Source: a virus. Taken from it: a stretch of 64,000 bases of DNA. The position numbers were made by a program, and so were the translations under genes. Numbering within the stretch: the first letter of the stretch is position 1; the number at the start of each line of letters is the position of its first letter. Positions 1 through 61,991 of this stretch are shown one piece after another. The stretch lies in the IMG/VR virus record IMGVR_UViG_3300028886_001504. One strand, written 5' to 3'. Under the pieces are notes generated by a model, which saw only the letters and a program-made list of their open reading frames with translations, was not told the DNA's origin and did not search any database.

Positions 1-616
1 CTAACAGGTATCCGTTGGTTACAATGTTTGATGAGAAATTGATTTTTGCTTTTCTAAGTTCAGAACAGATTAAATCAATGATTTTTAAATTGTATAGAGG
101 TTCACCGCCAAACCATCTTAAAAACACATTATGTGCTGGGTCGTGTCTTTCAATGATAAACTTTACAATTTTTAAAGCTGTTTCTTCCGTCATGTCAATG
201 TGCCTGATGTTTCTCTCATAACAGTAAAAACATCTGGCATTACAATCTGTTGTTGGAAGAATAGTATATGTGGTTATTTTAGAAGTTCTAATATCATCTT
301 TCATAGTGGAAAGATAATAGTTCTTAACCTTTTTAGCGGCTTCAAATTCATTAAAGTTTTCTGTCACTAAGAAATAGTTCCCAAATAGATACTTAAAGCC
401 CTCTGATGCTTCATTTTCTTTTTTAGTAACCACTTCAAAGTCATGGTCAGTTAAAAATACCAATGATTTTGTGAGTTCATTATAAATTACTTTGCCACCG
501 TCAACATCAACGATAACACATAGTTTACTATATTTTACTTTTTTGGTATTAGTTCTTTTTTGAATACCCCCAAGTACGTTGATAATCTCGTTTGGTGATT
601 TTATGTATATATTCAT
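1..616 (-). CDS. radical SAM domain protein (N-terminal part; gene continues past window start)
   Basis: Minus-strand reading from ATG at 616 gives MNIYIKSPNEI... with CNARCFYC (CxxxCxxC) cluster; absent from ORF track because it runs off the edge. Confidence 0.55.
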   Translation of the reverse strand, partial: MNIYIKSPNEIINVLGGIQKRTNTKKVKYSKLCVIVDVDGGKVIYNELTKSLVFLTDHDFEVVTKKENEASEGFKYLFGNYFLVTENFNEFEAAKKVKNYYLSTMKDDIRTSKITTYTILPTTDCNARCFYCYERNIRHIDMTEETALKIVKFIIERHDPAHNVFLRWFGGEPLYNLKIIDLICSELRKAKINFSSNIVTNGYLL

Positions 617-675
617 TCTTCAATATTTTTGTTAAAAATACTGATTTTATACGAAGAAACCAAATAAAAAAAGAA

Positions 676-700
676 AAACCTCCACGAATGGAGGTTTTTT
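676..700. terminator. hairpin terminator (cctccacgaatggagg) flanked by A/T runs
   Basis: Inverted repeat seen directly, 3' of minus gene 723..1106. Confidence 0.5.
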
Positions 701-722
701 CATGTGCATCAATGAACAAGCA

Positions 723-1106
723 TTAGAAGTTCTTCTTAAGATACTTGTTATTGTGTTCTACGCAGTCATATGCCTTCTCAATGAAGTTGTTGAGAATGGT
801 AAGCCTCAGGAAAGAGCGCTCCATGTCATTGGCAAGGTGGTTCGCGCAGCGCGAATAGGCACGGCTTTCTGCCTTTGCCCGCGCAACTTTCTTACCGACC
901 TCTGCGTTGAACTTATCGCCAGCACCACACTTTGCAATGGCAGTAACAGAAGAATACTTCTCTGGTGCGATGAAGAGTTCACCATCTGCATCATACGGAA
1001 CCTGGAGGTGGTACGATACACGGCACTTGACAGTACCTTCCTTTTCGTTGACATAGTAGTTCGGGCGACCGAAAGTGAGTTTGATTTCGTTTCTTGAAAG
1101 TCTCAT
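723..1106 (-). CDS. hypothetical protein
   Basis: 127 aa ORF, TAA stop, followed by terminator hairpin. Confidence 0.5.
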   Translation of the reverse strand: MRLSRNEIKLTFGRPNYYVNEKEGTVKCRVSYHLQVPYDADGELFIAPEKYSSVTAIAKCGAGDKFNAEVGKKVARAKAESRAYSRCANHLANDMERSFLRLTILNNFIEKAYDCVEHNNKYLKKNF

Positions 1107-1133
1107 TTTTTTGTTTTTTTAAGGGTTAATATT

Positions 1134-1550
1134 TTAGTTGAAATTTATTTGTCCGTTTGCAAAATAGCCATAAGTGCCAGTTACATACACAGGAGTATAA
1201 TGGTAGTACCAATCGGTGATGTTGTTGCTTTCTACAGGCTTAACACCAGGCGCTGTTGCCAAAGTGATGTGTTTAGTTTGGTTATCTGATACTAAGTTCC
1301 GTACTAACACAGCCACCGCCTTATCCGATACACCAACACCAATGATTTCCAAGACAACTTTTTTACCTATAAGGTGTTTAAAGCGCTCAAAATTTTCATC
1401 TTGTGTTTCCACATTACCATTGTAACATGTCGTTCCGTGATGTGCAAAAATCGTCCAATCTTTTGGTATGAGATATTTATATCTGTCCAGAAGTTTGGCT
1501 TTAGATTCTTCATCTAAGAAACAACCGATATAGTTCCATTTCTTAACCAT
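1134..1550 (-). CDS. putative 2H phosphoesterase (LigT-like)
   Basis: Two H-x-T motifs (HGT, HIT); track start is TTG, first ATG at 1550; sigma-A -7 motif at 1569-1576. Confidence 0.4.
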   Translation of the reverse strand: MVKKWNYIGCFLDEESKAKLLDRYKYLIPKDWTIFAHHGTTCYNGNVETQDENFERFKHLIGKKVVLEIIGVGVSDKAVAVLVRNLVSDNQTKHITLATAPGVKPVESNNITDWYYHYTPVYVTGTYGYFANGQINFN

Positions 1551-1568
1551 TGTTCTTGTTATTTTTTG

Positions 1569-1576
1569 CAAAGATA
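1569..1576 (-). promoter_or_regulatory. Bacteroidota-type -7 element (TAtcTTTG on minus strand)
   Basis: CAAAGATA immediately upstream of minus-strand gene start. Confidence 0.45.
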
Positions 1577-1609
1577 ATACTTTTTTCTATAATAACAAAC
1601 TTTTTGTGA

Positions 1610-1897
1610 CTATTTTTGAACATATGGTGTGCCATCTTCGTTCACCAACATTACAACGCCAGTCTCACCAACAACCAAATACAAAACACCTGTGGCGTTG
1701 TGGCGATATATACCATGACTAATGAATATAGGTGCAACTTTTGTAAATGACTCTTTTTTAGGGGCAGGTTCGTGTTTCTCTTTTTCGTGTACTGGCTTTG
1801 TTTTTGTAGAATAGCCACTGTAATCCGCTGGAGCACAGCAAGATGTTAGAAACATACAGGCAATAAACGCAAGGATAATGATAATTTTTCTTTTCAT
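1610..1897 (-). CDS. putative lipoprotein
   Basis: N-terminal signal MKRKIIIILAFIACMFLTSCC. Confidence 0.45.
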   Translation of the reverse strand: MKRKIIIILAFIACMFLTSCCAPADYSGYSTKTKPVHEKEKHEPAPKKESFTKVAPIFISHGIYRHNATGVLYLVVGETGVVMLVNEDGTPYVQK

Positions 1898-1901
1898 AAT
1901 A

Positions 1902-2159
1902 TTAATATTTTGGCTTCTCTTTTTTCTTCACACATTGGTAAACATACCACAAATATTCGGTGGACAGTTTTCTAAGTTTTTCGCCTTTCCACTGCCATCC
2001 AGTAATACCCCACTGTGTTCCTGTAAAGTCACCCATACCTTTGTTAATGAAAAACTGTGCAATTTCAAAAGATGGGTCAACACCAAACACAAGGTTTACA
2101 ACATCTTCATGTGTCAATTCAACCGTAATGTTTTTTTCTTTGTTAGTTTTTGTTTCCAT
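1902..2159 (-). CDS. hypothetical protein
   Basis: 85 aa ORF in co-directional array. Confidence 0.4.
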   Translation of the reverse strand: METKTNKEKNITVELTHEDVVNLVFGVDPSFEIAQFFINKGMGDFTGTQWGITGWQWKGEKLRKLSTEYLWYVYQCVKKKEKPKY

Positions 2160-2183
2160 ACCGTTAGGTTTTTGCTAACTGTA

Positions 2184-2579
2184 CTATTCTGGATAATAAC
2201 ACGTGGTCTTAGGATAACCGCTTTCTTCAATTTCTTTTGCTTGCTGGGAAAGATAATAGGCCATAATCTTGAGACGCTCCGCAGAATCCCTAAGATGTGC
2301 TACCCAATCTTTCTTTTCTTCTTCTGTTTCAAAGGCGATGGGGTCACCCAAACAGCCACAAGACCATACACTATTTTTTCGTGGATGGTAAATGTCTGGA
2401 AAGAGTTCAGTTGTTTCTGGTCCGTCCTCTTCATCCTTACCGAAGCATTGGACAATAACGTTCATTTCTCCACCTGGGTAAACCATGTTGTCTGGATTAA
2501 CACCAATAGCAATAAGTTCTTCTTTCGTAAGCATATTATTAGCCAAGTTTAAAAATTTTTGTAATGTCCGTTTTCCCAA
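2184..2579 (-). CDS. hypothetical protein
   Basis: 131 aa ORF, TAG stop. Confidence 0.45.
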   Translation of the reverse strand: MGKRTLQKFLNLANNMLTKEELIAIGVNPDNMVYPGGEMNVIVQCFGKDEEDGPETTELFPDIYHPRKNSVWSCGCLGDPIAFETEEEKKDWVAHLRDSAERLKIMAYYLSQQAKEIEESGYPKTTCYYPE

Positions 2580-2850
2580 GAATCTGCAAGATTCCTCAGC
2601 ACATCAGCAACATCTTTGCTTCTGTCATCTGCCATATAAAACCCCAAATTCATAAGGTTGGACTTAATTCTGGTTCTTAGATTAATTTTCTCGTTAATAT
2701 CCATAATTTTTAGTTTACTGTTAACCTAACAAGAATAATGCCAAACTACTTTTTATACAGAGTAATTTTGTTTGTTTTCAGTATTTTTTTACTTTCTTCT
2801 TGGCTGTAGTTTAACACATCCGTAAGAAATTTTTGGAACGTAATTTTAGG

Positions 2851-2885
2851 ATGGGTTTGTTTATATTCTCTAAACCCATCCCTGA
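2851..2885. terminator. hairpin ggatgggtttg...caaacccatcc
   Basis: Inverted repeat 3' of minus gene 2913..3278. Confidence 0.45.
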
Positions 2886-2912
2886 GTTGCATATGTGTTT
2901 CAAATAAACTTT

Positions 2913-3278
2913 TCATTCTTTGTTATTTTTACAGAACTTTTTCAAATCATTTGCAACATTTTCAAAATAACTTGACATGTCGAACAAATCGCTTTTCATG
3001 TCTTCAAGGTCATCAATACAGTTCTGAACCTTATCTTTTAACTGGCGTATAGTGGCGGTAGCTACATATTTATCTTCACCGAGTAAGAATTTCATAGCCT
3101 CTGTCATGTTGTCAGGAACATTAACAATCTGATATGCCCAGCCACTGTTTTTGCTATTTGATTCTAAAACAGCGTCCTCTATTTGTGTCAACGTCTTACC
3201 TTTTTCCAGGTAATAATCAACAGAGTAAACATGCACCACTTCGCCTGTGTTTGTACTAGTTGTAATTACTATTTTCAT
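2913..3278 (-). CDS. hypothetical protein
   Basis: 121 aa ORF. Confidence 0.45.
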   Translation of the reverse strand: MKIVITTSTNTGEVVHVYSVDYYLEKGKTLTQIEDAVLESNSKNSGWAYQIVNVPDNMTEAMKFLLGEDKYVATATIRQLKDKVQNCIDDLEDMKSDLFDMSSYFENVANDLKKFCKNNKE

Positions 3279-3481
3279 TTTATAATGATTTTTGTGATGT
3301 TACTAAACATAAGAGAATATGGTATTTCTATTTTTTTGCCATGGCTTTCCAGTATGCCAACGTTTTCGTTTGCGCTTTTTTTAACATCATAAACCTCGCC
3401 TTTTACTGGCATAACGTCCTTAAAAGACTCCATGTTGTTCATGATGTAATCGACAATCTTTTCTGTAACCCTTATTTTCAT
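3275..3481 (-). CDS. hypothetical protein
   Basis: 68 aa ORF, 4-nt overlap with the upstream gene. Confidence 0.4.
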   Translation of the reverse strand: MKIRVTEKIVDYIMNNMESFKDVMPVKGEVYDVKKSANENVGILESHGKKIEIPYSLMFSNITKIIIK

Positions 3482-3657
3482 TGCTCTTCATAAATTATGG
3501 CATAACATTCACCAATCATAGGAATGTATGTGCGTTTGACTTCCGTTACCTGTGGATAGACGGTATATCCACCGCGTTTTTTCTTTTTGGCAACAACAAT
3601 CTTGATGCCATCGGTGTTAGCCACCTGTTCTGTTAATTCTTTTGCTGTCATCATAAC

Positions 3658-3933
3658 TTAAAATTGTTTGTAAAGTCTTTTAAATTTCTTAGCCTTTTTG
3701 CACCATACAAGATAACTACCTTTCCTTACATTGCTTAACAGTCTAATTATCTTTACACGATGAAAATCCTCGCAAGACCCACAGACGGGGCACTCTACAA
3801 AATAAAGCCATTTAGAACATTTTCTTAACATGGTTTGTAAACTATAATACTTGTTATTTGAATAACTGGCATTTGAGAACCATGTATCCTTTAAGCCCAG
3901 GATTTTTGCATATTGGCCATTCATATTCACCAA
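3658..3933 (-). CDS. hypothetical Cys-rich protein
   Basis: CPVCGSC motif. Confidence 0.35.
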   Translation of the reverse strand: MVNMNGQYAKILGLKDTWFSNASYSNNKYYSLQTMLRKCSKWLYFVECPVCGSCEDFHRVKIIRLLSNVRKGSYLVWCKKAKKFKRLYKQF

Positions 3934-4252
3934 AAAGTTCTGCGTCTTTTTCTGACTTCATCGTACACTTAATCATTCCACAAACATCACGGCGTGATTC
4001 AATGAACCAGATTGGATATACAACTTCGCTTAATTTTTTTTCGTCGATTATGGTCTTGTCATATCCCCAAACTTCGTGTTCCTTCATTTCATATGTAAAA
4101 GATGGCTCAATCCAAACACCTTCCTTATTTTCGCCTTTTTCCAATAATTCTTTAACATATTTTTCGGCTTTATTTCTGTCAATAAAAGCAGCAACAGCCT
4201 CAGGAAATTTTTTTCTTCCTTCTTTTCGTATTTTAAGAACAATACTAATCAT
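3854..4252 (-). CDS. hypothetical protein
   Basis: Track ORF 3854..4315 trimmed to the internal Met after the upstream stop. Confidence 0.35.
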   Translation of the reverse strand: MISIVLKIRKEGRKKFPEAVAAFIDRNKAEKYVKELLEKGENKEGVWIEPSFTYEMKEHEVWGYDKTIIDEKKLSEVVYPIWFIESRRDVCGMIKCTMKSEKDAELFGEYEWPICKNPGLKGYMVLKCQLFK

Positions 4253-4262
4253 ACTTGTTTTT

Positions 4263-5267
4263 CTAAAATTTAACGTTTTTAAGGGTGTTTTTGGCATTTT
4301 CTGTGTACCCGTCAACTAACGATACAATGTTGTACATATCGTTGTTAAACACAGCGTCACACAGGATTATGGGGTTATGTGATACCGTGATGATTTGTAC
4401 ACCAAGTTTTTCAACAATCATAGGCAGTTCCTCAACGTAAAGCCGATAAACTGACATAATGTCAAGTGACTTGTCAACTTCATCAAAAACAAAAGTAACG
4501 GGTGACTTTTTGGCATATTTCTCAAAGGACTCCAGATATTCGGCCTGAGCGTTATAACAGTTGGCCCAAGTTGAATTACCTTTTCTGCCAGCCTTTAAAT
4601 CATTGGCGATAATATCTTCAATGGAGCGATGTTCAGCACCATTGTTAATCATCTTTGTCAAAAGATAGTTGGTCTTTTGTCCTTCTGACATTATGTTTTT
4701 CCCAACACGGTACAAAATTTCTTCGGTAAAAGAACCAAACACAGAGCCGACAAGACCACCAACCGTACCACTGTTTTGTGCATAAGTTTCAGCGAATCTA
4801 TCAACATAGACGGGTGCGCCATCCCAAACAACATTGCAGGAGTTTTGTTTCAACTTCTCTACGGCTTTCAAAACGTGGGTTACGGAGATTTGCTCACCCC
4901 ATCCATGTGGAATCTGTATCGGTGTTTGTAATTTGGTGAATCCGTCTGTGATAAGGGCCGTACCAGCGATAGCTTTAATGATTGTTGATTTACCACAAGC
5001 ATTTGGGCCAAACAGGACATTAATCTTTTTGTCACAAAAATTGAAAGTTTTTGCGACTAAAGTCTCTGCTAAAAACGGATTCTCATAATCGTCTTTATGT
5101 TTCTCCCAAATTGCATGTTCTTTTTTATAGTCGGCCTTTGCCTTTGCAAACTCTTTGGGAGACATATTACTATATTCCCTATAACATCTGCTTGGGGCTA
5201 CAGGCTCCTCAATTTTCTTGTAAACATAGCCATTCCCTTCTTTGGGAAAACTTACAGAACTAATCAT
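4263..5267 (-). CDS. P-loop ATPase, ABC/SMC-like
   Basis: Walker A GPNACGKST, Walker B-like FDEVDKSLD, H-loop ITVSHN. Confidence 0.55.
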   Translation of the reverse strand: MISSVSFPKEGNGYVYKKIEEPVAPSRCYREYSNMSPKEFAKAKADYKKEHAIWEKHKDDYENPFLAETLVAKTFNFCDKKINVLFGPNACGKSTIIKAIAGTALITDGFTKLQTPIQIPHGWGEQISVTHVLKAVEKLKQNSCNVVWDGAPVYVDRFAETYAQNSGTVGGLVGSVFGSFTEEILYRVGKNIMSEGQKTNYLLTKMINNGAEHRSIEDIIANDLKAGRKGNSTWANCYNAQAEYLESFEKYAKKSPVTFVFDEVDKSLDIMSVYRLYVEELPMIVEKLGVQIITVSHNPIILCDAVFNNDMYNIVSLVDGYTENAKNTLKNVKF

Positions 5268-5808
5268 TGGTCCTTCCTCTTAGTTTATCAAATACACTAC
5301 CAACGTATGTTACTGGCGCAACATCGGAAACAATACGAAGCATATCTTGTGGATTGCTAAGGTTGAGTTGTGGATAGCCGTCATTATATTTTACATGTTC
5401 TTTACGGATGATGATGAACGCTGCAATGTCCTTGCACCACACAACAACACCAAGTTCTTTGGTAGCATCTATCTCCACCACATCGCCTTGAAACAATGGG
5501 TGTTTATACTTGTAACCCTTAATTGGAACAAGAACGCCAGCACAAAATTGAAGGGTTCTACCGTCAACCTCGATTTGTTCAAGTTCATTCTCCATGTTCC
5601 AATCGGAGAAGCCATCACGAAAAACATAGTGTTTAGTCAGAGCATTATACTCTTCTTCAAGTCTTTTCCTATCTTCCTCTTTGTTAGGCCAAATAGGAGA
5701 CGGAGTTACGGTAAGATGTTTTACATAATACCCTTCAACCCAGTTATGATTTTTTGTTGGGTCGGTATCTTTACGTAGTGCTTTACATTTAAACGTAATT
5801 TCAAACAT
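5260..5808 (-). CDS. hypothetical protein
   Basis: 182 aa ORF. Confidence 0.45.
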   Translation of the reverse strand: MFEITFKCKALRKDTDPTKNHNWVEGYYVKHLTVTPSPIWPNKEEDRKRLEEEYNALTKHYVFRDGFSDWNMENELEQIEVDGRTLQFCAGVLVPIKGYKYKHPLFQGDVVEIDATKELGVVVWCKDIAAFIIIRKEHVKYNDGYPQLNLSNPQDMLRIVSDVAPVTYVGSVFDKLRGRTND

Positions 5809-5922
5809 GGTTTCTGTTTTTTAAGTGTGTTTGCATTACACCGTGCAAGTATCGTGCCAGAATGAACATGGCAGTTCTCAACATTATAATCATTTCTTGC
5901 GCTATTTTAGTTATCAATCCAC

Positions 5923-5948
5923 CTTTTTGGTTTTTCAAACTATTTATA
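5923..5948 (+). promoter_or_regulatory. promoter-like 26-mer CTTTTTGGTTTTTCAAACTATTTATA
   Basis: Identical 26-mer at 12506-12531 upstream of tnpB; core AAACTATTTATA recurs upstream of every + strand gene. Confidence 0.5.
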
Positions 5949-5983
5949 TACAAAGATATGAAATTTTTTAAAAACAACAAAAA

Positions 5984-7192
5984 ATGAATGACGTAACATG
6001 TAAAAAACTGTTTAACACCGAAGATGGTAAGCAAAAACGAATGGTTAGTATTTTAAAAATTTTTAGAGAAAACAAGAATGTGGAAGAATATGTAAAAAAC
6101 AGATATTCGGACTCCACATCAATTAAAGAAAGTGTTTATCGTATATTAAATAATATTGAAATTAGGCCACAGTGTAGGTGCGGAAAAGTATTAGAGTTTG
6201 ATTATCCTCTAAACACTTTCCATAAATATTGCTGTTCAAAATGCCAAAATTCAGACCCAGAAAAGATTAAAAAAGACAAAAAAACTAAACTGGATAAATA
6301 TGGGTCAGAAAATTACAACAATTTTGAAAAAATGAAAGAAACTTGCTATGAACGCTATGGAACAACATCTTTCACTAAGACGAATGAGTTTATAGAAAAA
6401 ACAAAAAAGACTAATTTTGAAAAGTATGGTGTAGATTGGTGATTACAGACTGATACTTGTAAAGATGAAACGAAAAAAGTAAAAAAAGAAAAGTACGGTG
6501 ACGAGAACTATAATAATCGAAATAAGGCGAAAAATACATCACTAGAAAGATATGGGGTTGAAAACACTATGCAATGGGAGGGTTCAAAGCAAAAAGAAAA
6601 AGAAACTTGCCTAAAAAGATACGGTGTTACTTCTTATGCTAAGACAGATGAGTTTAAGAAAAAACTAAAAGCCACTTATCTTAAAAAATGAGGGGTTGAC
6701 AATTGCACAAAAAGCGAAGAATGAAAAAACAAATGATATTCAAATGAAGAGTGAGTAAAAGAAAAAGTAGATAAAATCTACAACACTATGTTAAAAAACT
6801 GTAGTTTTTCACATTCTAAACCAGAGCAAGTTATCTTCAATTTCTTAAAAAATGAGTATCCTGATACAATTTATCAATACAAAGAAAAAAGATACCCCTT
6901 CAAATGTGATTTTTATATCCCTTCAAAAGATTTATTTATTGAATACAACGGCTATTGGGCACATGGCGGACACTTTTTTAACGAGAATGATGAAAAAGAT
7001 GTAGAAAAACTGAAATCATGAAAAGAGAAAAGTAAAAAATCTAAACAATACGAAAATGCAATAAAGACATGGACAATAAAAGACCCTTTGAAACTTAAAA
7101 CTTTTCAAGAAAACAATCTTAAACACATAATACTGTGATATGACAGTTTTAAAAATTTAGAGCAGATAAAAGAAATGGTGGACGAATTTTAG
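5984..7192 (+). CDS. homing-endonuclease-like protein: Zn finger, four ~35-aa repeats (ETC..RYG), C-terminal DUF559/Vsr-like nuclease; 7 in-frame TGA read as sense
   Basis: One frame from 5984 to TAG at 7190-7192 with TGA at 6440, 6689, 6722, 6734, 6752, 7019, 7136 and no TAA/TAG; C-terminal CDFYIPSKDLFIEYNGYWAH matches the DUF559 pattern. Confidence 0.6.
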
Positions 7193-7200
7193 TCCACCAT
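7173..7200. terminator. bidirectional hairpin aatggtggac...gtccaccatt
   Basis: Inverted repeat between convergent genes. Confidence 0.5.
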
Positions 7201-7205
7201 TCTTT

Positions 7206-8357
7206 TTATTTAGCATATGCTTGCTTCCCATTATTTGCAAGAATTGACAGTTCTGTATTTTCTTTTAGTTCTTCAATAGTATTGCTATTAGTATATGTCA
7301 TACAACTTCTGAGATAAGAATCCATATTTGTTATCCAGTGTTTTAGAGAATACTTTACTTTAACTGGTTTACAAATTCCTTCACTAACTTTAGAGCCATC
7401 ACCACCTATTAGTTTTTGAGAATACCTATGTGACATACCCCTATACATCCTATACGGTATTAATAGTTTTCTTGTTTTACCCAGAAAGTTTAAATCTTCT
7501 TCTGTGTATTTCTTATAATTTTCATATTGTTCTCTTGTCAAATATGAACCGTTGGAGAAATCTTCTTCCGTTTCTGCATAGCCTATCTCTCCACATGCTT
7601 CTTCACATTCGGCAAACAATTTGCCAATCATAACAAAATCACCACCTAGTGCAAGACTTTTCTGTATTTTATCATACCAGTCAATTCCACCATCAACAAT
7701 TATTTTAGTATATTTTTTTCCATTAGGATGTGCATCAATCCATTTGCTTCTTTCGATATTAATATCATCAATTAATGTTGCAGCGCCTGTGTATACTCCA
7801 ACAGCACATGCCGTCGTACACCGACTTCCAGAACCAATACAGAGCCTCATATACGAGATACCCGCATCACAATAAAACGAATATGCTAATTCATTGTTTA
7901 CATTTCCTGTCATTAAAACAATCCTTTCTCCGTATTTGTTTTTGATTTTTTTACAAATCTCATATAAAGAGTTTAATGTTCCATGTGCCATATCAATACA
8001 AATGTATTGAACCTTGTCAGATAAATCAAACATTTCTTTTTCAAAAATGTCATACACTTCTTTTTCTGAAAAACTAACAAATGTTTCTTCTGATAATTTT
8101 AATCTATCTTCCATTGTGCACCTTTGCATAATTGACCTAGGAATTACAGGCGTTATTTTATTTTCGATGAAAACTTTATAATTTTTTTCATCAATAACGC
8201 TTTCCATTGGCGAAGCAAAGATAGGATACATTTCTCTTCCACAAACAGTTACAAAAGGATTGATATCACCCCTATGTTCTGTATAACAAATTGGTGACTG
8301 TCTAATCCCTACATCATCAAGACCGTAGGTAATTTTTGTGAGTTTACTTTTATTCAT
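7206..8357 (-). CDS. IMPDH/GMP reductase family protein (GuaC-like)
   Basis: Catalytic loop CIGSGSRCTT; phosphate-binding VDGGI...GGDFVMIG; start set at MNKSKL after the upstream stop. Confidence 0.7.
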   Translation of the reverse strand: MNKSKLTKITYGLDDVGIRQSPICYTEHRGDINPFVTVCGREMYPIFASPMESVIDEKNYKVFIENKITPVIPRSIMQRCTMEDRLKLSEETFVSFSEKEVYDIFEKEMFDLSDKVQYICIDMAHGTLNSLYEICKKIKNKYGERIVLMTGNVNNELAYSFYCDAGISYMRLCIGSGSRCTTACAVGVYTGAATLIDDINIERSKWIDAHPNGKKYTKIIVDGGIDWYDKIQKSLALGGDFVMIGKLFAECEEACGEIGYAETEEDFSNGSYLTREQYENYKKYTEEDLNFLGKTRKLLIPYRMYRGMSHRYSQKLIGGDGSKVSEGICKPVKVKYSLKHWITNMDSYLRSCMTYTNSNTIEELKENTELSILANNGKQAYAK

Positions 8358-8370
8358 GTTACGTCTTCCA

Positions 8371-8613
8371 TTACTGTTGTGCATTAGGGTCACATAATTT
8401 TGCTTCAAACAATTTCTTTCCTTCAACAATTACTTCCATGCCATCTGTTTTGTTTTCAATACAATAGTTTTGGAAATAGAAAGAAAACAATGCAACAATT
8501 TCGTTTGGTGTAATTTCGCGTGAATCTTTGCTTAGTTTGTCACTATTTTGAAGTTTCTTAGATAAGAAAAGTTTGTTACCGTCTGATTTAAACGTATAAT
8601 CATTTGCTGCCAT
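8371..8613 (-). CDS. hypothetical protein
   Basis: 80 aa ORF. Confidence 0.4.
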   Translation of the reverse strand: MAANDYTFKSDGNKLFLSKKLQNSDKLSKDSREITPNEIVALFSFYFQNYCIENKTDGMEVIVEGKKLFEAKLCDPNAQQ

Positions 8614-8634
8614 AATAATATATTTTTAGTTTTG

Positions 8635-9393
8635 TTATTTTACACATTCATAGATTGTTAATAAAGTGTTATCGTCAAGTGGTTCGATAAATCTATCAAA
8701 GAACTGGCTTACCCAGATAAATTGGTTAACATTCGGTTCAAGTTCCTTCCAGCCCTCTTTTTCTGACAAAAAGGCATACCCCCAAAAAGCAGTGTTAGAA
8801 ATGACATATGTCTTTTTGTCACCATATTTCTCGAAGTAGGTTGTTCTGTTTTTCATGTTTTCATAAACAATCTTGTCTTCTTCGGTCTTTGGTTCTTTTC
8901 CTTCCATTACCATTTCCCAGGCGGTTTTATATACCGCTTGATTATTAAGATGTATAGAGTCCCAATCAATGTCTTTCTTTCTTGCTTGAAATGTCTCTTC
9001 ACCGTTCAAGGTCTTAAACGGCACAGAGAAAAACTTACCCATTGCATATGCCCTCCACTTACCATTTGGGTTCTCTGTAGTATATGCATCACCTGTATCT
9101 GGGTCGTGTTCATATGCAGATGTCATTGTAAGGAAGAAATCATCTGGTGTCATTTCTTTAATGTCTTTCAGTTCTTCTTTCAACGTTGCTACGTATGCAG
9201 CAGGTAACCCAGCCTTTTCTATCAAGCTCTGATATAATTCTATTTGTCTTTCTTGCAGTTTTTTTGCATCGTTAAACTTGAACAGTATGTGCTTATTGCC
9301 ATTACCGTTTGATACACCATAAGGCTCCATTAATTTTTCTGGGTTCTCCCCAGCAACAATGCACACAAAATGTGCAAAATCATCAGCGTTCAT
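8635..9393 (-). CDS. hypothetical protein
   Basis: 252 aa ORF. Confidence 0.45.
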   Translation of the reverse strand: MNADDFAHFVCIVAGENPEKLMEPYGVSNGNGNKHILFKFNDAKKLQERQIELYQSLIEKAGLPAAYVATLKEELKDIKEMTPDDFFLTMTSAYEHDPDTGDAYTTENPNGKWRAYAMGKFFSVPFKTLNGEETFQARKKDIDWDSIHLNNQAVYKTAWEMVMEGKEPKTEEDKIVYENMKNRTTYFEKYGDKKTYVISNTAFWGYAFLSEKEGWKELEPNVNQFIWVSQFFDRFIEPLDDNTLLTIYECVK

Positions 9394-9659
9394 TAATTCT
9401 TTGTTTTTGGCAAATTATTATTGTGTAGATTTTTATAGATACTTAACGTCTTCACTAGCGCATATGTCTTGCTCTGCTCTTCTCCAAGACGCTTTCTATT
9501 CAACCCATATATCAATAGATAAATTTCTTTATATGTCATCTTTGTTTCTTTTTTTCCAAGAAACCAACAACATATTTTATAGAGCCAGTTATTTTTAACT
9601 ACCCTAGTTACTTTATCATCCATCCAAGATAAGTCTATTTTCTCTTTCGGTGTTTCCAT
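9393..9659 (-). CDS. hypothetical protein
   Basis: 88 aa ORF. Confidence 0.35.
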   Translation of the reverse strand: METPKEKIDLSWMDDKVTRVVKNNWLYKICCWFLGKKETKMTYKEIYLLIYGLNRKRLGEEQSKTYALVKTLSIYKNLHNNNLPKTKN

Positions 9660-9660
9660 A

Positions 9661-9891
9661 TTACAACATGATTACACCACCCCAAGACAATCCCATTATA
9701 ACAGACAGAATCAGTCGAAATTTGGCAAAAAATGTCGTGGCATTATTGATATCTTTTTCTTTGTCAAGCACTTGGAAATTGTTTTTCCAAGAGTTCGTGG
9801 CGTTTATATCGGTTACGATATTGCTTATGTACAAACATGTGGTAAATATTGCTACCACACAACAAATGTATTTTAATATTACCTGAATCAT
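9661..9891 (-). CDS. small membrane protein
   Basis: Hydrophobic 76 aa ORF. Confidence 0.35.
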   Translation of the reverse strand: MIQVILKYICCVVAIFTTCLYISNIVTDINATNSWKNNFQVLDKEKDINNATTFFAKFRLILSVIMGLSWGGVIML

Positions 9892-9938
9892 GTTTCAAAT
9901 ATATGTTTTATTTTTGTAATAAACAAAAAAAGAAGGTT

Positions 9939-10229
9939 TTAATAGACCCTCCTAAAAGTTTTTCTGTGTTTTGCGCAGTCTACGATATATTCTCTTCGTA
10001 GACGTATGCATTCTGCTATTGCGCCAGATTGGTCGTTGCCAAACGGCTTTGTTTCTTTTGCATAGTCTCCTGAGTTTCCACCAAATGATGCTACATCAAT
10101 AGCGAGGAAAAAACCACCATCGCCTTTCCATACTTGGTACATGCTTTTTGCTTGCTTTCTAAACTCCCTTAAGTAATAGGTGTTAAGGTGGTCATGTGTC
10201 AGTACACGTTTAATTTTCTTTTTTTCCAT
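9939..10229 (-). CDS. hypothetical protein
   Basis: 96 aa ORF. Confidence 0.35.
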   Translation of the reverse strand: MEKKKIKRVLTHDHLNTYYLREFRKQAKSMYQVWKGDGGFFLAIDVASFGGNSGDYAKETKPFGNDQSGAIAECIRLRREYIVDCAKHRKTFRRVY

Positions 10230-11079
10230 TTTCTGTATTAGTTGTCATAAGTTTAAAAAATTCTTCTTTCTCTAACGGAGTAGCATCAGTGGCTACCCAA
10301 GCATTACGTTTCACCATAATCGTAGCACCATCTGGATATTTCTTGTTTGGCTTGATTGTTACTTCGTGCTCCTGTTCCACACGATGTATGATACGGCCAT
10401 ACTTCAAGCCATTTTTATAGCAATTCCAATCAATACCTTTTTCTTCTTTCATTTTAGCAATTTGTTCATCGGTATTAAGGTTAAGTAATTCCTTGTGTGA
10501 AAGGTATGTCTGTGCAGCCTGTTGCTTAGAGTTTTTGATGCAATCCAGCTGGCGGTATTTAAACCATGCAAAAGCATCATTGTCAGAAGGAACATTCCAG
10601 CATTTGCAATCAAATTGTGCTAATTTCTGGTTCTCAATAAGATTCGTTGCCTCATTTATTTTATAAATCGTATCTATGCAATCAATTTTGAAAGTGTCGT
10701 AATCCCTACTTTTTATCTCATAAAGGATTGCAAGCTGGTTAAACTTGGCTGTAGCCAAAGATGCAATGATACTCAAAATTTTGCACATTCTGTTACTAAA
10801 GAACGGTGTGGCTTCGCCCTCATCTTTGAGAAGAAAACTGATTTCATCAGATTGCACAAACGCAATTTTAACTCCCTGTACATTTTCACACACATACTTT
10901 GCTGTTTCATTCATCATATTCACAAAGTCCATATCGAATGGCTTTCCGAAATGGTTTTTAATGAGTTTGCTAAAAGCGCGTCCATCACACATTACCAAAA
11001 CATTGGTGTTTGGTAGAAGTCTGTAATCTGTGAGTCCTCTGTAATACTCACCCTTTTCTTTTAGGTTTTGGAAAATCAT
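10210..11079 (-). CDS. tRNA-His guanylyltransferase-like (Thg1-like) 3'-5' nucleotidyltransferase
   Basis: MCDGRAFSKL...KPFD...AFVQSDEISFLLK matches the Thg1 catalytic core. Confidence 0.7.
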   Translation of the reverse strand: MIFQNLKEKGEYYRGLTDYRLLPNTNVLVMCDGRAFSKLIKNHFGKPFDMDFVNMMNETAKYVCENVQGVKIAFVQSDEISFLLKDEGEATPFFSNRMCKILSIIASLATAKFNQLAILYEIKSRDYDTFKIDCIDTIYKINEATNLIENQKLAQFDCKCWNVPSDNDAFAWFKYRQLDCIKNSKQQAAQTYLSHKELLNLNTDEQIAKMKEEKGIDWNCYKNGLKYGRIIHRVEQEHEVTIKPNKKYPDGATIMVKRNAWVATDATPLEKEEFFKLMTTNTENGKKEN

Positions 11080-12505: not shown

Positions 12506-12531
12506 CTTTTTGGTTTTTCAAACTATTTATA
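12506..12531 (+). promoter_or_regulatory. promoter-like 26-mer identical to 5923-5948
   Basis: Exact repeat; 18 nt upstream of the tnpB ATG. Confidence 0.5.
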
Positions 12532-12548
12532 GTGAACACAAGTGAAAA

Positions 12549-13757
12549 ATGAATGTAATTACCTATAATGTAGAACTTAACCCAACACCAGAAACTTTCA
12601 ACTACTGGAAGAAAATGCTGGTGTTGTATGCACAGGCATATAATGACTGTGCAAACTACATTGTGGATAAAAAACTTCCTCTTTCCATTAAAACCGTTCA
12701 CAACAAAGTCTACGATAGGCTTCGGAAAGCCTACCAAGAACTCCCTTCACAAGCCGTTATCAGACTTTACAAGGATGTTATTCCTGCGTTCAAGTCTATA
12801 CGCTCGAACAAACAAAAAGACACTGAAACGCCACAGAAGAAAAATCTGTCAATGAGGCTTGACAAACGCCTCTACACAAGAGTGGATAGCGATGGTATTG
12901 TAATCACCTCAGAGGTAGCTAGAAAACGTGTTAAAATACCATTTGTCTTGTATGATAAAGTAACAGAACTTCTAAGCAAATACGAAGTATCTGACCCAAC
13001 GATTTTCATTCGTGATAACAGGTTATACCTGTCAATACCGTTTTCAATCCCAACCATTGTCACCGACAATGACAATGCTGTTGGCATTGACCTTGGCATT
13101 AAACGGTTGTTCGTTACCTCAGAAGGTGTGGCATTTAAAGACAAAGCATATCTTCGTGAGCGAAGGAAGGTGCGGCACAATAAACGCAAACTACAAGAAA
13201 AATCAAATAAAAGTCGCACGGCAAAAAAACACCTTAAGAAAATCAAAAGAAGGGAAGTCAACCTCTCAAAAGATATGTTGCATAGAGCAACTAACGCAGT
13301 TCTCGAATCAACATCAGCATCAGTTCTTGTAGTCGAAGACCTATCGAAGATAAAAACCAAAACCTCCAAAACCAAAGAAGGGTTTAAGAGAACAAAACAC
13401 AATAATTCTTTCTCTCAAGTTCCCGTTAGGGAATTCAGAGACATGTTGGCTTACAAGGCACAGTTACACGGAAAACGTGTTGAAACAGTTTCTCCAACTT
13501 ACACCAGTCAAATGGATTGCCGTACTTCAAATAGAGACGGCAACAGAAAAGGTTGCCGATACTATTGCTCAGACGGAATCGTCTTTGACGCAGATTGGAA
13601 CGCAGCAGCCAATATCGCTATTAGAGCGAACCACCCGTTATCGAATATACTGCCATTGGATGGCACACTTAAATTCCTGAACGGCAGGGCACAGTCAATT
13701 GCCCATACGACGAAGGACACACCCTTTCGTCAAGCCCACGAATTAATTCGTGGGTAG
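12549..13757 (+). CDS. tnpB: TnpB (IS605 OrfB-family RNA-guided nuclease)
   Basis: RuvC-like GIDLGIKRLFV; C-terminal Zn finger CRTSNRDGNRKGCRYYC with DADWNAAANIA. Confidence 0.85.
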   Translation: MNVITYNVELNPTPETFNYWKKMLVLYAQAYNDCANYIVDKKLPLSIKTVHNKVYDRLRKAYQELPSQAVIRLYKDVIPAFKSIRSNKQKDTETPQKKNLSMRLDKRLYTRVDSDGIVITSEVARKRVKIPFVLYDKVTELLSKYEVSDPTIFIRDNRLYLSIPFSIPTIVTDNDNAVGIDLGIKRLFVTSEGVAFKDKAYLRERRKVRHNKRKLQEKSNKSRTAKKHLKKIKRREVNLSKDMLHRATNAVLESTSASVLVVEDLSKIKTKTSKTKEGFKRTKHNNSFSQVPVREFRDMLAYKAQLHGKRVETVSPTYTSQMDCRTSNRDGNRKGCRYYCSDGIVFDADWNAAANIAIRANHPLSNILPLDGTLKFLNGRAQSIAHTTKDTPFRQAHELIRG

Positions 13758-14762: not shown

Positions 14763-15249
14763 TTTCGCTTAAAATTGTTCTTGTTATAACGTTTGCTATG
14801 CTTGTTGTCCATTCATCTCTTAAAGACAGAGAATAATCGTCCCAGTAACTAATAAAAAATTCCACGTATTTTTTTGGCGATTTTAATTCACATTTATCTA
14901 ACGGCAATTTTGTAAAAACTCTCTTAAGAACACCAAACAATGGAACAATCATATTTTCCCTTGTTATTTTTTTTGCCATGGGTGTTTCATCTGGTAATTT
15001 CCGAAGGAAAACGTAAAGCTTATTATATGCTTTACACATAGCAATCCTCTTCTCATGGCTCATATCAACATCAATATAATATCCCACTAACCAGTCTATC
15101 AAACCATCAGGTGTTGTGTGCCAAGAAACTTCCTTTTCCATACTATTATCCATAAATTTTCTTCCTTGCCTCAATAAGAAGATTATTAATTGCCTCATAA
15201 TCAGAGTGCTCTGGAAGCGTTGAGTTTTCAATTGCAATCTCCATTTCAT
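14755..15249 (-). CDS. hypothetical protein
   Basis: 164 aa ORF. Confidence 0.4.
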   Translation of the reverse strand: MKWRLQLKTQRFQSTLIMRQLIIFLLRQGRKFMDNSMEKEVSWHTTPDGLIDWLVGYYIDVDMSHEKRIAMCKAYNKLYVFLRKLPDETPMAKKITRENMIVPLFGVLKRVFTKLPLDKCELKSPKKYVEFFISYWDDYSLSLRDEWTTSIANVITRTILSENE

Positions 15250-29832: not shown

Positions 29833-29844
29833 AAACTATTTATA
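29833..29844 (+). promoter_or_regulatory. AAACTATTTATA promoter-like motif
   Basis: 20 nt upstream of + gene 29864. Confidence 0.45.
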
Positions 29845-32055: not shown

Positions 32056-32117
32056 GTCAGAAAATGTTTTTTGTTTGTTATTTGCTGTTAATTTTCTTTG
32101 GTTGTCAAAACCAAGCG

Positions 32118-32125
32118 CAAAGATA
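32118..32125 (-). promoter_or_regulatory. Bacteroidota-type -7 element
   Basis: CAAAGATA. Confidence 0.4.
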
Positions 32126-32136
32126 TGCACTATTTT

Positions 32137-43033: not shown

Positions 43034-43048
43034 GAAAATAATTAAAAA

Positions 43049-43078: not shown

Positions 43079-43168
43079 TTTAACAATATCCTTACTGTTT
43101 TTTTAACCATCCGCTTTATGTCGGATTCTGTTTTTTGATATTAACAACTTTTAAGCATCTACAACTGT

Positions 43169-44047
43169 TCAGCCAGATGGAATACCGTCTGCACCTGTTG
43201 TCCAACCTGACATATTTGAACTTTTAACAAAAGTTCCTGTGTTTCCTACACCTTCTACCCATTCAGTTGTACTGGATGGAAAGTATCTGGTTGCGAGGCA
43301 TTTGATGTAATTTAAACTAGCGCAATCACAAAACATTTGATAATAACAAGAACTCAATATGGTTGTTGCGGGTAATTCAGGTGCTTTTGTTAATGATGTA
43401 CAACTTCTAAACATATATTGATAGCAAGCTTGTTCTAAAGTAGTTGCGGGTAATTCAGGTGCATTAACGAGGCTAGTGCAATTATAAAACATCCCATAAT
43501 AACAGCAATAAGTTAAAGTAGTGGCTGGCATAATTAATTTACTAGCATCTGTTAACCCAGTACAATAAATAAATAACCCATTAAAATTATACATATCTTG
43601 TAGTGTTGTAGCGGTAGCAAAACCAGCGCTACTAATCATACTCATTATGTTACCTTTTACTTTAAATTGACATGTTGTACCGTAAAAACTGTTAGACTGA
43701 CTTTCTCTATTGTCGCCATATGTTGTATTATCCCCCCTAAACTGAACAGTATCACCCGAAACAACGCTTATAGATACGCCTTCTGTATTAGCTGTTATAC
43801 TTGTCCATTCTCCGTTATTCTTCTTGTATTCAATTGTTTTTGGTGTACAATTTTGTGCTATTCATATAATATTACCATCGCCAGTTACTTCAAATGTAAG
43901 TGGTGTGCACAGAAGTTTTTCATAACCTGATTTGTTATAATCAACCCCTTTCCCTTCGGTATAAGAGACTCAAGGTTCTAAATAACTATTATCTCTTGCC
44001 TCCGTATAAGCAGATTGTGATTCAAAGTAATGCGTGTATTTTCCCAT
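43169..44047 (-). CDS. BspA-type leucine-rich-repeat protein; 2 in-frame TGA
   Basis: Track ORF 43169..43645 continues upstream in frame to ATG 44045-44047 across TGA at 43862-43864 and 43970-43972; repeats ..ATTL..CY.YMF..CTSL..APELP. Confidence 0.5.
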
Positions 44048-55746: not shown

Positions 55747-56442
55747 CTACGGTTTATCTTTGGTTTCACCAGTGTTTCTATATACATTAAATTGCGGAAA
55801 CTGCATAAAGTCGTTTTCTTCGTCTTCTATTTTATCATCGGTTTGTTTTTCACCTAAAACAAGATGTTTATACGTCCTTTCGAGTCACTTCTTGAAATCA
55901 TCAACTGACATTTCATGTTTAGCATAGTTACATTTAGCACAACAAGGCACTACGTTGTCTAATGTGTAGCCTTTACTAGAATCCACTCTATCTATACCAT
56001 TGTGTGCTCATGGTTTTTGTGTTTTTTGCATATATTGTAATTCATACTCTCTAACTTCTGGTGATGCACCACAATAATAACAATCTTGTTCCATTATCTC
56101 TATAAACTCTTCAAATGTTAAATCAAAGTCTAGTCCTCTTTTTGACGCACCTGCTCTATAATCCTTTAATAGTCTATTTTTCAATCCAGAATGTACAATA
56201 CCCTGACTTTTCCTCAAAGCTGTTTCTGTTGATGTTTTCTTGTTTGTACACGAATGACATCCGAAACGGTTGACTAATGTTTTTTCTTTCGCATGAAATT
56301 CATTACCACAATCACATCTACATTCCCACAGTCAAACGTTTTTACCTTTTACTGTTGATTTTCTACAATAATTCTTAATGAGGATAAATCTATCATTAAT
56401 CCTATCCCCTTCCTTGTAATTTGTTTTGTGTTTTGGTCCCAT
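55747..56442 (-). CDS. HNH homing endonuclease; 3 in-frame TGA
   Basis: ATG 56440-56442 to TAG 55747-55749 in one frame with three TGA; Zn finger WECRCDCG; HNH core HNGIDRVDSSKGY...NVVPCCAKCNYAKH; track fragment 56008..56217 is in the same frame. Confidence 0.6.
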
Positions 56443-61289: not shown

Positions 61290-61991
61290 TTACTTCTCCA
61301 GTTTATTGGGACTGGCGTTTCCTTTTGAGTTTGTTTTCCTTTTCGTTCTTGTCGATTTTCCAGTATTCAATGCTGAATAATTTACTGTCATAGCATGGTG
61401 ATTCGGGCATAAAACTTGAAGATTTTCTTCTTTACTATTGTTTGCATCACCATCAATGTGGTGTATTTCAACTATTGGTCTTCCACTCTTAGGATTTACT
61501 CAGTTACATCCACAAATTTCACAAGAACAATTTGTTTTTTCTAACATGTACCTTCTAACAAATTGTGATAGTTGTCCTACCCCTCTATTTCCACTACACT
61601 CTCCACTTTTTCATCTTAGAATATACTGTTTATATTCATACTCTCTTTGACAATGTGAACCACAAAATTTTGTGCTTTTTCTCAAATCCGTTATCTCTCC
61701 TCCACAATTCAAACACACTCTTTCATGTTTTTGTTTCCTCACCCTCTTCTTGTTATTATAAGATGCAGAACAGGAATGTGAGCAAAATAATTTCTGGTCC
61801 TTTTCAAGTTTTTTACCACAAACAATGCAATACTTAGTATTATTTAGTTTAATTGTTTCCAGTCAATCTTTTCAATCAACACCGTTTTCTTTTAAATAAA
61901 GTTTTACTTTTTCTCTGTTAGTGTAATTTGCTTTTCCATAAAGTTTTCTAGATACGTCATTTAACGACTTGCAGTCTTTCAATATTTCCAT
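61290..61991 (-). CDS. HNH homing endonuclease; 4 in-frame TGA
   Basis: ATG 61989-61991 to TAA 61290-61292 in one frame with four TGA and no TGG; Zn fingers CIVCGKKL...CSHSC; HNH core VEIHHIDGD...LQVLCPNHH. Confidence 0.6.

What the first reader, a model, noticed from the sequence alone, without database searches (positions are those of the whole stretch)
5984..7192. Recoded homing-endonuclease-like gene with Zn finger, four tandem YG-repeats and a DUF559/Vsr-type nuclease domain
The frame hosts seven TGA. The N-terminal region has CxxC...CxxC. Four ~35-aa repeats with core ETC(Y/L)(E/K)RYG(T/V)(T/S) follow. In two of the repeats the aromatic before GVD is encoded by TGA (KYGVDW vs LKKWGVDN). 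The C-terminus carries CDFYIPSKDLFIEYNGYWAH, the DUF559 restriction-endonuclease-like pattern. The stop codon sits inside a bidirectional terminator hairpin.
Basis: partly seen in the sequence, partly recalled or inferred. Interest (0 to 1): 0.6.

Follow-up and report, generated by a model that had tools for sequence, protein, structure and literature searches.

The report
TGA-recoded homing endonuclease gene in phage
This is an intact phage gene for a Vsr-like (EDxHD-type) homing endonuclease that can only be read if TGA means tryptophan; it is a good example of a known phenomenon, partial stop-codon recoding concentrated in selfish nuclease genes, not a new kind of system.

Summary

Orthologs sit at the same place, convergent with an IMPDH-like gene, in related jumbo-phage contigs, and there they use only TGG. 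A relative 97-98% identical in both flanks lacks the gene but keeps a decayed remnant of its last codons. Other relatives carry truncated copies. This pattern fits a selfish nuclease gene.

In the window, 17 TGA=Trp codons lie in four genes: this one, two HNH endonucleases and an LRR gene. About 60 other genes have none. No suppressor tRNA lies in the window. Preferential TGA use in a phage homing endonuclease was already reported (Borges et al.). Verdict: a new member of known kinds.

The parts
5923..5948 (+). Promoter-like element CTTTTTGGTTTTTCAAACTATTTATA, 35 nt upstream of the ATG
   Evidence: The 11-mer AACTATTTATA occurs 6 times exactly, and 11 times with up to 1 mismatch against 3.65+-1.96 in shuffles. 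Eight of nine ACTATTTAT copies lie 14-35 nt upstream of a start codon. The same 26-mer precedes the TnpB gene. The motif is kept upstream of the orthologs in L003 and L005. Promoter function is inferred.
5984..7192 (+). Coding sequence of the DUF7487 / EDxHD-type endonuclease, 402 codons, read with TGA=Trp, stop TAG
6164..6253 (+). Four-Cys zinc ribbon (C64, C66, C83, C87)
   Evidence: The four Cys are invariant in 30 sequences. There is a weak profile match to the YacG zinc finger 1lv3/4tma, E 0.02.
6254..6712 (+). Seven tandem 19-23-aa helix-loop 'KYG' repeats (aa 91-243), presumed DNA-binding array
   Evidence: z 20.5. In the model each unit is one helix ending in K-Y-G. The DNA-binding role is inferred.
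6791..7189 (+). Vsr-like / EDxHD nuclease domain (aa 270-402) with E281, D309, N322, H327, D339
6440..7138 (+). Span holding the seven in-frame TGA codons (starting at 6440, 6689, 6722, 6734, 6752, 7019, 7136)
   Evidence: Each aligns with W in homologs; codon 236 aligns with W/Y/F. Orthologs in L001, L003 and L005 carry TGG only.
7174..7201 (.). Bidirectional intrinsic-terminator hairpin shared with the convergent IMPDH-like gene; it contains the TAG stop
   Evidence: The hairpin and the last ~14 codons persist as a remnant in the relative L008, which lacks the gene.
7206..8429 (-). IMPDH/GMP-reductase-like gene, the conserved convergent neighbour of this endonuclease gene in all related loci
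   Evidence: Pfam PF00478, E 6e-34. Same arrangement in L001, L003-L007 and L129.
55747..56442 (-). HNH / endonuclease VII-like gene with 3 TGA=Trp codons and 1 TGG (same recoding phenomenon)
   Evidence: PHROG 1035, E 2.7e-20. The TGA align to W or an aromatic residue in homologs.
61290..61991 (-). HNH endonuclease gene between tRNA-Thr and tRNA-Cys with 4 TGA=Trp codons and no TGG
   Evidence: PHROG 1271, E 1.8e-20. All 4 TGA align to conserved W. All 4 are kept in a 99.3%-identical contig from another sample.
43151..44047 (-). Leucine-rich-repeat (BspA-like) gene with 3 TGA=Trp codons, which shows the recoding is not confined to nucleases
   Evidence: The three TGA align to W in the standard-code homolog of L008.

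Best explanation
The ORF at 5984-7192 is an intact, free-standing homing-endonuclease gene of the Vsr-like EDxHD type (Pfam DUF7487) in a jumbo-phage genome that has partly reassigned TGA from stop to tryptophan.

The protein has an N-terminal helical region, a four-Cys zinc ribbon and seven KYG helix repeats. These are inferred to bind DNA. Its C-terminal nuclease domain is inferred to cut DNA with an Asp/His/Asp metal-ion site, as Vsr and I-Bth0305I do.

The gene has its own promoter-like element. It is transcribed against the flow of the surrounding genes and ends in a terminator hairpin shared with the convergent IMPDH-like gene. It behaves as a selfish, dispensable cassette at the edge of a conserved block: intact in some relatives, truncated in others, and replaced in one near-identical relative.

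Seven Trp codons are TGA, the first at codon 153. Standard decoding therefore yields only a 152-aa fragment without the nuclease. Full-length enzyme needs efficient TGA suppression, presumably by a phage-encoded tRNA(UCA) outside this window.

The most likely consequence is the one proposed for recoded phages: the nuclease is made only once the code switch is on. That timing step is inference.
For: Reading frame and code. There are seven TGA, no TAA or TAG, and no frameshift in 402 codons. All seven TGA align to W or an aromatic residue in 29 homologs. TGG->TGA and TGG->TAG are equally easy transitions, yet the window shows 7 TGA and 0 TAG here (P 0.008), and 14 against 0 over the three nuclease genes (P 6e-5). 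All family-invariant residues are kept.

Selfish-element behaviour. Orthologs of 56-69% identity lie at the same site next to IMPDH. L003 carries the gene and L008 does not, yet their flanks are 97-98% identical. L003 has a 1488-bp cassette where L008 has 681 bp, and L008 keeps a decayed remnant of the 3' end. Truncated or fused copies occur in L129 and L130. The gene diverges faster than its neighbour: 65-85% against 84-93% nt identity.

Lineage-specific recoding. Orthologs use 9-11 TGG and 0 TGA. Two HNH genes and an LRR gene in the window also carry TGA=Trp. 66 table-11 ORFs of at least 100 aa (63 after removing fragments that overlap the three nuclease genes) hold 265 TGG, and the code-4 ORF map shows no in-frame TGA in nearly all long genes.

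Precedent. In TGA-recoded Agate phages an intron homing endonuclease is one of three gene families that prefer TGA to TGG. This was interpreted as delaying its production (bioRxiv 10.1101/2021.08.26.457843).
Against: The window has no suppressor tRNA, only tRNA-Ser(GCU), Cys(GCA) and Thr(UGU). How TGA is decoded is therefore not shown. Related tRNA arrays in L132 and L134 have tRNA-Trp(CCA) but no tRNA(UCA).

TGA still looks like a genuine stop in at least one gene: in 54059-55033 it sits where the homolog stops.

The gene occupies the same site in relatives whose IMPDH genes are only ~72% identical in DNA. A stably resident nuclease is therefore possible.

No clean empty target site was found, and there is no gradient of differences near the gene.

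Sequence profiles do not reach Pfam Vsr or DUF559. The link to those families rests on a predicted structure of an ortholog, because the tool would not accept the table-4 translation.
Confidence: 0.75

Rival explanations
1. The gene is a stably resident (domesticated) phage nuclease with a cellular or antiviral role, for example cutting host or competitor DNA. It would not be an actively homing element, and recoding would simply reflect late or low expression.
For: The position next to IMPDH is the same in relatives as distant as 56% protein identity. The ORF is intact and conserved. No empty target site or co-conversion gradient was seen. There is a weak PADLOC hit to a 'HEAT_CxxC_PD-DEXK' candidate defence protein, E 0.002.
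Against: Genomes 97-98% identical in the flanks differ in presence or absence of the gene, and the one lacking it keeps a decayed remnant. Truncated and fused copies exist. Single Lak megaphage genomes carry 5-9 copies. The closest solved relatives include a proven homing endonuclease. The gene evolves faster than its neighbour.
Confidence: 0.15
2. The gene is a dead pseudogene: the seven TGA are ordinary nonsense mutations in a standard-code genome.
For: Nearly all other genes of the window read cleanly in the standard code and 13 of 66 long ORFs end in TGA. No suppressor tRNA lies in the window. Decayed copies exist in relatives.
Against: All seven interruptions are TGA at Trp positions. None is TAA or TAG, there are no frameshifts, and every family-invariant residue is kept. 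The same TGA-at-Trp pattern occurs in three further genes, 10 more codons. The four TGA of the HNH gene are conserved in a second sample.
Confidence: 0.04
3. The TGA-rich allele was imported by homing or recombination from a fully code-4 relative into a phage that cannot itself read TGA, so it is silent here.
For: The gene is much more divergent from L003 than the adjacent IMPDH gene is, with a break in identity at its 3' end. Nuclease genes are known to sit at boundaries of exchange (PMC10055350).
Against: Four unlinked genes in this window carry TGA=Trp, including an LRR gene that is not a mobile nuclease. No TGA-bearing donor allele was found in the collections searched.
Confidence: 0.06

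Closest known systems
I-Bth0305I and the EDxHD (Vsr-like) homing endonuclease family (Taylor et al. 2011, PMC3239194)
   Different: It is free-standing, not intron-encoded. The N-terminal part is a zinc ribbon plus seven KYG repeats instead of two NUMOD2 helix-turn-helix motifs. It is read with TGA=Trp. Cleavage and homing are not demonstrated.
E. coli Vsr very-short-patch repair endonuclease (1cw0, 1vsr)
   Different: Vsr is a single-domain repair enzyme that nicks T:G mismatches. Sequence profiles do not connect the two (Pfam Vsr matches 1 of 27 members at E 0.11). This protein has large DNA-binding additions.
Group I intron endonuclease of TGA-recoded Agate phages (Borges et al., bioRxiv 10.1101/2021.08.26.457843)
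   Same: It is a homing endonuclease gene that prefers TGA to TGG for Trp, inside a phage whose replication-type genes stay readable in the standard code. Close relatives use the standard code.
   Different: This gene is free-standing and lies in a different, larger phage type (related contigs are about 300 kb). The endonuclease family of the Agate gene is not stated in the passages read. No suppressor tRNA has been seen here.
RAP-domain / FASTK proteins of mitochondria and apicomplexan organelles
   Different: Those are eukaryotic RNA-binding proteins. There is no sequence relationship, and the resemblance may be convergent.

Membership tests
Pfam DUF7487 (PF24308) | Score above the curated gathering threshold | tested here: met
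   87.9 bits against a cut-off of 27, E 1.2e-24, aa 138-345. Nearly all of the 120 listed homologs carry PF24308.
EDxHD / Vsr-like homing endonucleases | Catalytic domain with the Vsr-type restriction-endonuclease-like fold | tested here: met
EDxHD / Vsr-like homing endonucleases | Conserved composite motif E, D, x, H, D (I-Bth0305I E170, D196, N208, H213, D222) | tested here: met
   E281, D309, H327 and D339 are invariant in 30 sequences; E281, D309 and H327 remain invariant and D339 at least 90% conserved in the other family alignments. N322 is usual. The order and spacing match. The correspondence comes from motif order and spacing, not from a residue-level superposition.
EDxHD / Vsr-like homing endonucleases | N-terminal NUMOD2 / helix-turn-helix DNA-binding motifs | tested here: not met
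   No NUMOD hit in Pfam at E<=1. The region is a zinc ribbon plus seven KYG repeats. One BFVD structural hit is annotated NUMOD3, E 1.8e-4.
Homing endonuclease gene (functional definition) | Variable presence at a fixed site among closely related genomes | tested here: met
   L003 carries the gene and L008 lacks it, with flanks 97-98% identical. L008 keeps a remnant of the gene's 3' end. Truncated copies occur in L129 and L130.
Homing endonuclease gene (functional definition) | Site-specific double-strand cleavage of the allele lacking the gene, and copying into it | not testable with these tools
   This needs enzyme assays and co-infection. No co-conversion gradient was visible in the L003/L008 flanks.
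Pfam DUF559 (PF04480) and Vsr (PF03852), at sequence level | Significant profile match | tested here: not met
   There is no hit for the window domain. Vsr matches 1 of 27 family members at E 0.11 and PvuRts1I-like_N matches 3 of 27 at E 0.006. No Vsr, DUF559 or I-Bth0305I chain appears in a PDB profile search at E<=10.
TGA-to-Trp (code 4) recoded phage | In-frame TGA aligning with Trp in homologs | tested here: met
   17 TGA in four genes all align to W or an aromatic residue.
TGA-to-Trp (code 4) recoded phage | Phage-encoded suppressor tRNA(UCA) or other code-change machinery (RF1, TrpRS) | tested here: inconclusive
   None in this 64-kb window by ARAGORN or Rfam. The rest of the genome is not available. 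Borges et al. detected a suppressor in only 35% of code-4 genomes.
TGA-to-Trp (code 4) recoded phage | Recoded codon concentrated in a subset of genes while replication/metabolism genes stay standard | tested here: met
   TGA makes up 14 of 19 Trp codons in the three nuclease genes and 3 of 6 in the LRR gene. No confirmed in-frame TGA was found in the other long genes, which hold 265 TGG. The temporal class of these genes is unknown.

The most novel reading that the evidence does not exclude
One gene may give two products through a temporal code switch. While TGA still terminates, the ORF would yield a 152-aa fragment (helical head, zinc ribbon, first two and a half KYG repeats) that lacks the nuclease. 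This fragment could occupy or mark the target site, or act as a regulator. Once TGA is read as Trp, the full-length endonuclease appears. More broadly, recoding would be a dedicated lock that phages place on their own selfish nucleases: three of three free-standing nuclease genes in this window are recoded, against almost none of the other genes.
Probability: 0.1. Interest if true: 0.7.

Novelty: new member of a known kind. Interest (0 to 1): 0.4.

Why it matters
It shows clearly how a code change spreads through a phage genome. Orthologs at the same two loci in standard-code relatives use only TGG. In this lineage the resident nuclease genes have converted about three quarters of their Trp codons to TGA, while some 60 neighbouring genes have converted none. 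This supports, in a different and larger phage type, the idea that recoding gates the expression of potentially harmful nucleases.

It also gives a functional assignment to Pfam DUF7487, which carries no functional annotation and which I found in no paper: EDxHD/Vsr-like endonucleases with a zinc ribbon and a tandem KYG helix-repeat array. That array could interest people who engineer DNA-targeting proteins.

Practically, standard gene callers split such genes into fragments, so mobile nucleases will be under-counted in partly recoded phages.

Tried and rejected
1. Megablast of 4000-10000 against GenBank phages found nothing.
2. An exact 40-mer from the gene, and a degenerate pattern requiring three TGA at the conserved EEWKxKWYxNxEW block, found nothing in IMG/VR. 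A looser pattern gave 120 loci, all chance matches except one weak homolog. I therefore found no other TGA-bearing allele of this gene.
3. An exact look-up of the IMPDH-like protein, and a 36-mer from the window end searched in the metagenome collection, found nothing. I could not extend the genome to look for a suppressor tRNA.
4. I asked whether genes ending in TGA are followed unusually soon by TAA/TAG, which would signal read-through. They are not different from genes ending in TAA/TAG (Mann-Whitney p 0.54).
5. I suspected that the short database homologs P0033, P0046, P0229 and P0237 were genes split by TGA. They are instead truncated, fused or naturally short standard-code genes.
7. Sequence-profile searches of the nuclease domain against PDB and Pfam do not reach Vsr or DUF559. 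Only fold comparison does.
8. There is no gradient of substitutions next to the gene between the relative that carries it and the one that lacks it.
9. Code 25 (TGA=Gly) and selenocysteine are rejected, because the TGA positions are Trp or aromatic in homologs.

Full report
**What is in the sequence**

On the + strand an ORF runs from ATG 5984 to TAG 7190-7192, 402 codons. It has seven in-frame TGA (codons 153, 236, 247, 251, 257, 346, 385), four TGG, and no TAA or TAG. In this window TAA plus TAG make up 3.4% of all triplets. A random frame of that length would escape them with P about 8e-7.

The stop codon lies at the loop/stem junction of a hairpin at 7174-7201 (-25.5 kcal/mol, z -6.1, none of 200 shuffles as stable). 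T-runs follow it on both strands. The convergent gene at 7206-8429(-) stops only 13 nt away.

**TGA means tryptophan here**

Translated with TGA=Trp, the protein finds 2531 homologs. The best has E 1.8e-180 and 69% identity over the full length, and most are about 400 aa. In an alignment with 29 of them:
- codons 247, 251, 257 and 346 fall on invariant or nearly invariant Trp;
- codon 385 falls on a mostly Trp column;
- codon 153 falls on Trp in the closest relatives;
- codon 236 falls on the Tyr/Phe/Trp anchor of a repeat.

TGG can become TGA or TAG by equally easy G-to-A transitions, yet the gene has 7 TGA and 0 TAG (P 0.008). There are no frameshifts, and every family-invariant residue is kept. 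This excludes a decaying pseudogene, TGA=Gly and selenocysteine.

**What the protein is**

Pfam places it in DUF7487 (87.9 bits, cut-off 27). PHROGs places it in family 3339, annotated 'homing endonuclease'. The structure tool would not accept a table-4 translation. I therefore modelled the 69%-identical ortholog P0001 with a 58-sequence alignment, which gave pLDDT 93.4. The model has four parts:
- a helical head (aa 1-60);
- a small zinc ribbon, with C64, C66, C83 and C87 invariant and a weak profile match to the YacG zinc finger (E 0.02);
- seven consecutive helices that each end in K/R-Y-G;
- an alpha/beta domain (aa ~270-402).

The repeats are 19-23 aa long and anchored at aa 105, 124, 147, 170, 189, 212 and 235. 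Their mutual similarity lies 20.5 sd above shuffles.

Foldseek also ranks Vsr first.

The paper on I-Bth0305I defines the EDxHD family by E170, D196, N208, H213 and D222, equivalent to Vsr E25, D51, H64, H69 and D97. It notes that the family includes free-standing genes and the Hef genes of T-even phages (PMC3239194). The window protein has E281, D309, N322, H327 and D339, invariant or nearly so in the family. The spacing is 28/13/5/12, against 26/12/5/9 in I-Bth0305I.

**Genomic behaviour**

The window is phage DNA. Genes run almost all on the - strand. They include NAD-dependent ligase, NAMPT, RNA ligase, polynucleotide kinase, CCA-adding enzyme, a Thg1-like enzyme, a TnpB gene and three tRNAs.

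The endonuclease gene points the other way. It is preceded by a 26-nt element, CTTTTTGGTTTTTCAAACTATTTATA. The core of that element recurs upstream of seven other starts in the window and upstream of the orthologs in relatives.

Orthologs of 56-69% identity occupy exactly the same place, convergent with the IMPDH-like gene. They occur in six other loci, one on a 300.8-kb contig.

An IMG/VR contig (L008) has an IMPDH-like protein 94% identical to the window's, but it has no such gene. L003 carries the gene and L008 lacks it, yet they are 98.4% and 97.4% identical over 4.4 kb and 2.8 kb of flanks. Between those flanks L003 has 1488 bp (a 78-aa ORF plus the endonuclease gene). L008 has 681 bp with an unrelated small ORF.

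L008 still holds a decayed copy of the last ~14 codons together with the hairpin. This makes sense because the hairpin also terminates the IMPDH-like gene.

Two further relatives carry an N-terminally truncated copy and a fused half-copy. Against L003, the gene is 65-85% identical in DNA while the adjacent IMPDH gene is 84-93%. Intact, decayed and lost copies at one site, and a position at the edge of a conserved block, are what is expected of a homing endonuclease gene. However, no clean empty site and no co-conversion gradient were found, and activity is untested.

**The recoding in context**

In the relatives the orthologs use 9-11 TGG and no TGA, as do all their neighbours. In the window, three more genes carry TGA at Trp positions:
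- an endonuclease VII/HNH gene at 55747-56442 (3 TGA, 1 TGG);
- an HNH gene between tRNA-Thr and tRNA-Cys at 61290-61991 (4 TGA, 0 TGG);
- a leucine-rich-repeat gene at 43151-44047 (3 TGA, 3 TGG).

The four TGA of the second HNH gene are kept in a 99.3%-identical contig from another metagenome. Its standard-code counterparts sit at the same tRNA-flanked site in relatives.

By contrast, nearly all other long genes have no in-frame TGA in the code-4 ORF map. The table-11 ORFs of at least 100 aa outside the three nuclease genes hold 265 TGG. TGA still appears to end some genes, for example 54059-55033, where it coincides with the homolog's stop.

No tRNA(UCA) lies in the window. I could not recover more of the genome.

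Seven successive TGA cannot be passed by occasional read-through, so a dedicated suppressor must exist if the gene is expressed. That is inference.

This pattern matches what Borges et al. described for gut phages. They reported close standard-code relatives and TGA accumulating in some genes but not in replication genes. In Agate phages a group I intron endonuclease was one of three families that prefer TGA to TGG, which they interpreted as delaying endonuclease synthesis until late in infection.

**Verdict**

The gene is an intact, TGA-recoded, free-standing EDxHD/Vsr-like homing endonuclease gene of family DUF7487, in a partly recoded jumbo phage. Both the enzyme type and the preferential recoding of a homing endonuclease have precedents, so this is a new member of known kinds.

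Three points add to what was known:
- the in-situ contrast with standard-code orthologs at two loci;
- the fact that all three free-standing nuclease genes of the window are recoded;
- a fold-level functional assignment for DUF7487 and its KYG repeat array, on which I found no paper.

Noticed in passing
window 5938-5948, 12521-12531, 29834-29844, 32823-32833, 44063-44073(-), 63853-63863; variants at 62011-62019(-) and 63539-63549(-): The promoter-like motif TTTKG-N~11-AACTATTTATA lies 14-35 nt upstream of eight gene starts, mostly the + strand or independent genes and most of the TGA-bearing ones. The endonuclease and TnpB genes share an identical 26-mer. The motif is conserved upstream of the endonuclease orthologs in standard-code relatives. 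Association with TGA-bearing genes gives Fisher p 0.0026, but the motif may only mark independent transcription units.
   Followed up: partly
window 12546-13757 (+): A TnpB / IS605 OrfB-type gene (Cas12f1-like TNB and OrfB_IS605 domains) lies on the minority strand, with no in-frame TGA and the same upstream motif as the endonuclease gene. I did not look for an associated guide RNA or element ends.
   Followed up: no
window 55747-56442 (-) and 61290-61991 (-): Two HNH-type endonuclease genes read only with TGA=Trp (3 and 4 TGA). The second lies between tRNA-Thr and tRNA-Cys. Relatives have the same arrangement with a shorter, standard-code HNH gene.
   Followed up: yes
window 43151-44047 (-): A leucine-rich-repeat (BspA-like) gene has three TGA=Trp codons. 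One lies 5 codons before the real stop and would be taken for the stop under table 11.
   Followed up: yes
window 29864-30358 (+), 32852-33439 (+); L008 (reverse complement) 8767-9252 and about 9482-9793: A family of small + strand ORFs shares an N-terminal motif like ITENDI(K/I)..V.E.VKK(V/L)(L/I)KE. The two window copies each contain one TGA. In L008 one member occupies the slot where relatives carry the endonuclease gene. There are no Pfam or PHROG hits.
   Followed up: partly
window 4263-5267 (-) and 5260-5808 (-): The ABC/AAA_21-type P-loop ATPase next to the endonuclease gene gives weak matches to the defence ATPases AbiLi and AriA (PADLOC E 6e-8 to 2.5e-9). The overlapping upstream 182-aa ORF has no match. 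This could be a phage-borne defence or anti-defence pair.
   Followed up: partly
window 30409-32130 (-): A GC-rich island (45% GC against about 36% elsewhere) coincides with a 573-aa gene matching PHROG 850 'RNA-binding protein'. It is flanked by the two small + strand ORFs.
   Followed up: no
window 10210-11079, 15146-16348, 17675-18979, 18955-20067, 21379-22833, 38937-40502, 51271-53295 (all -): A dense set of RNA-repair and NAD genes: Thg1-like tRNA-His guanylyltransferase, nucleotidyltransferase, CCA-adding enzyme, polynucleotide kinase, RNA ligase, NAMPT and NAD-dependent DNA ligase.
   Followed up: no
window 54059-55033 (-): The TGA that ends this table-11 ORF sits where the homolog in L132 has its stop. 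TGA may therefore still terminate some genes in a genome that reads it as Trp in others.
   Followed up: partly
window 1-3800: This region has poor long-ORF coverage under table 11. Several candidate ORFs appear only if TGA is read through (for example 2811-3278 and 3269-3508, -). None has a family match.
   Followed up: no
L134 5194-5266; L132 and L134 1-11500: Related phages carry arrays of 24-27 tRNA genes upstream of the HNH gene. L134 has one tRNA-like gene that ARAGORN reports with a two-base anticodon, 'tRNA-??? (ct)'.
   Followed up: no
window 43024-43110 (+): One copy of the promoter-like motif has no ORF downstream. It is followed by a short hairpin (GCCATAAGAGAAATCCTATGGC). It might drive a small RNA or be a relic.
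   Followed up: no
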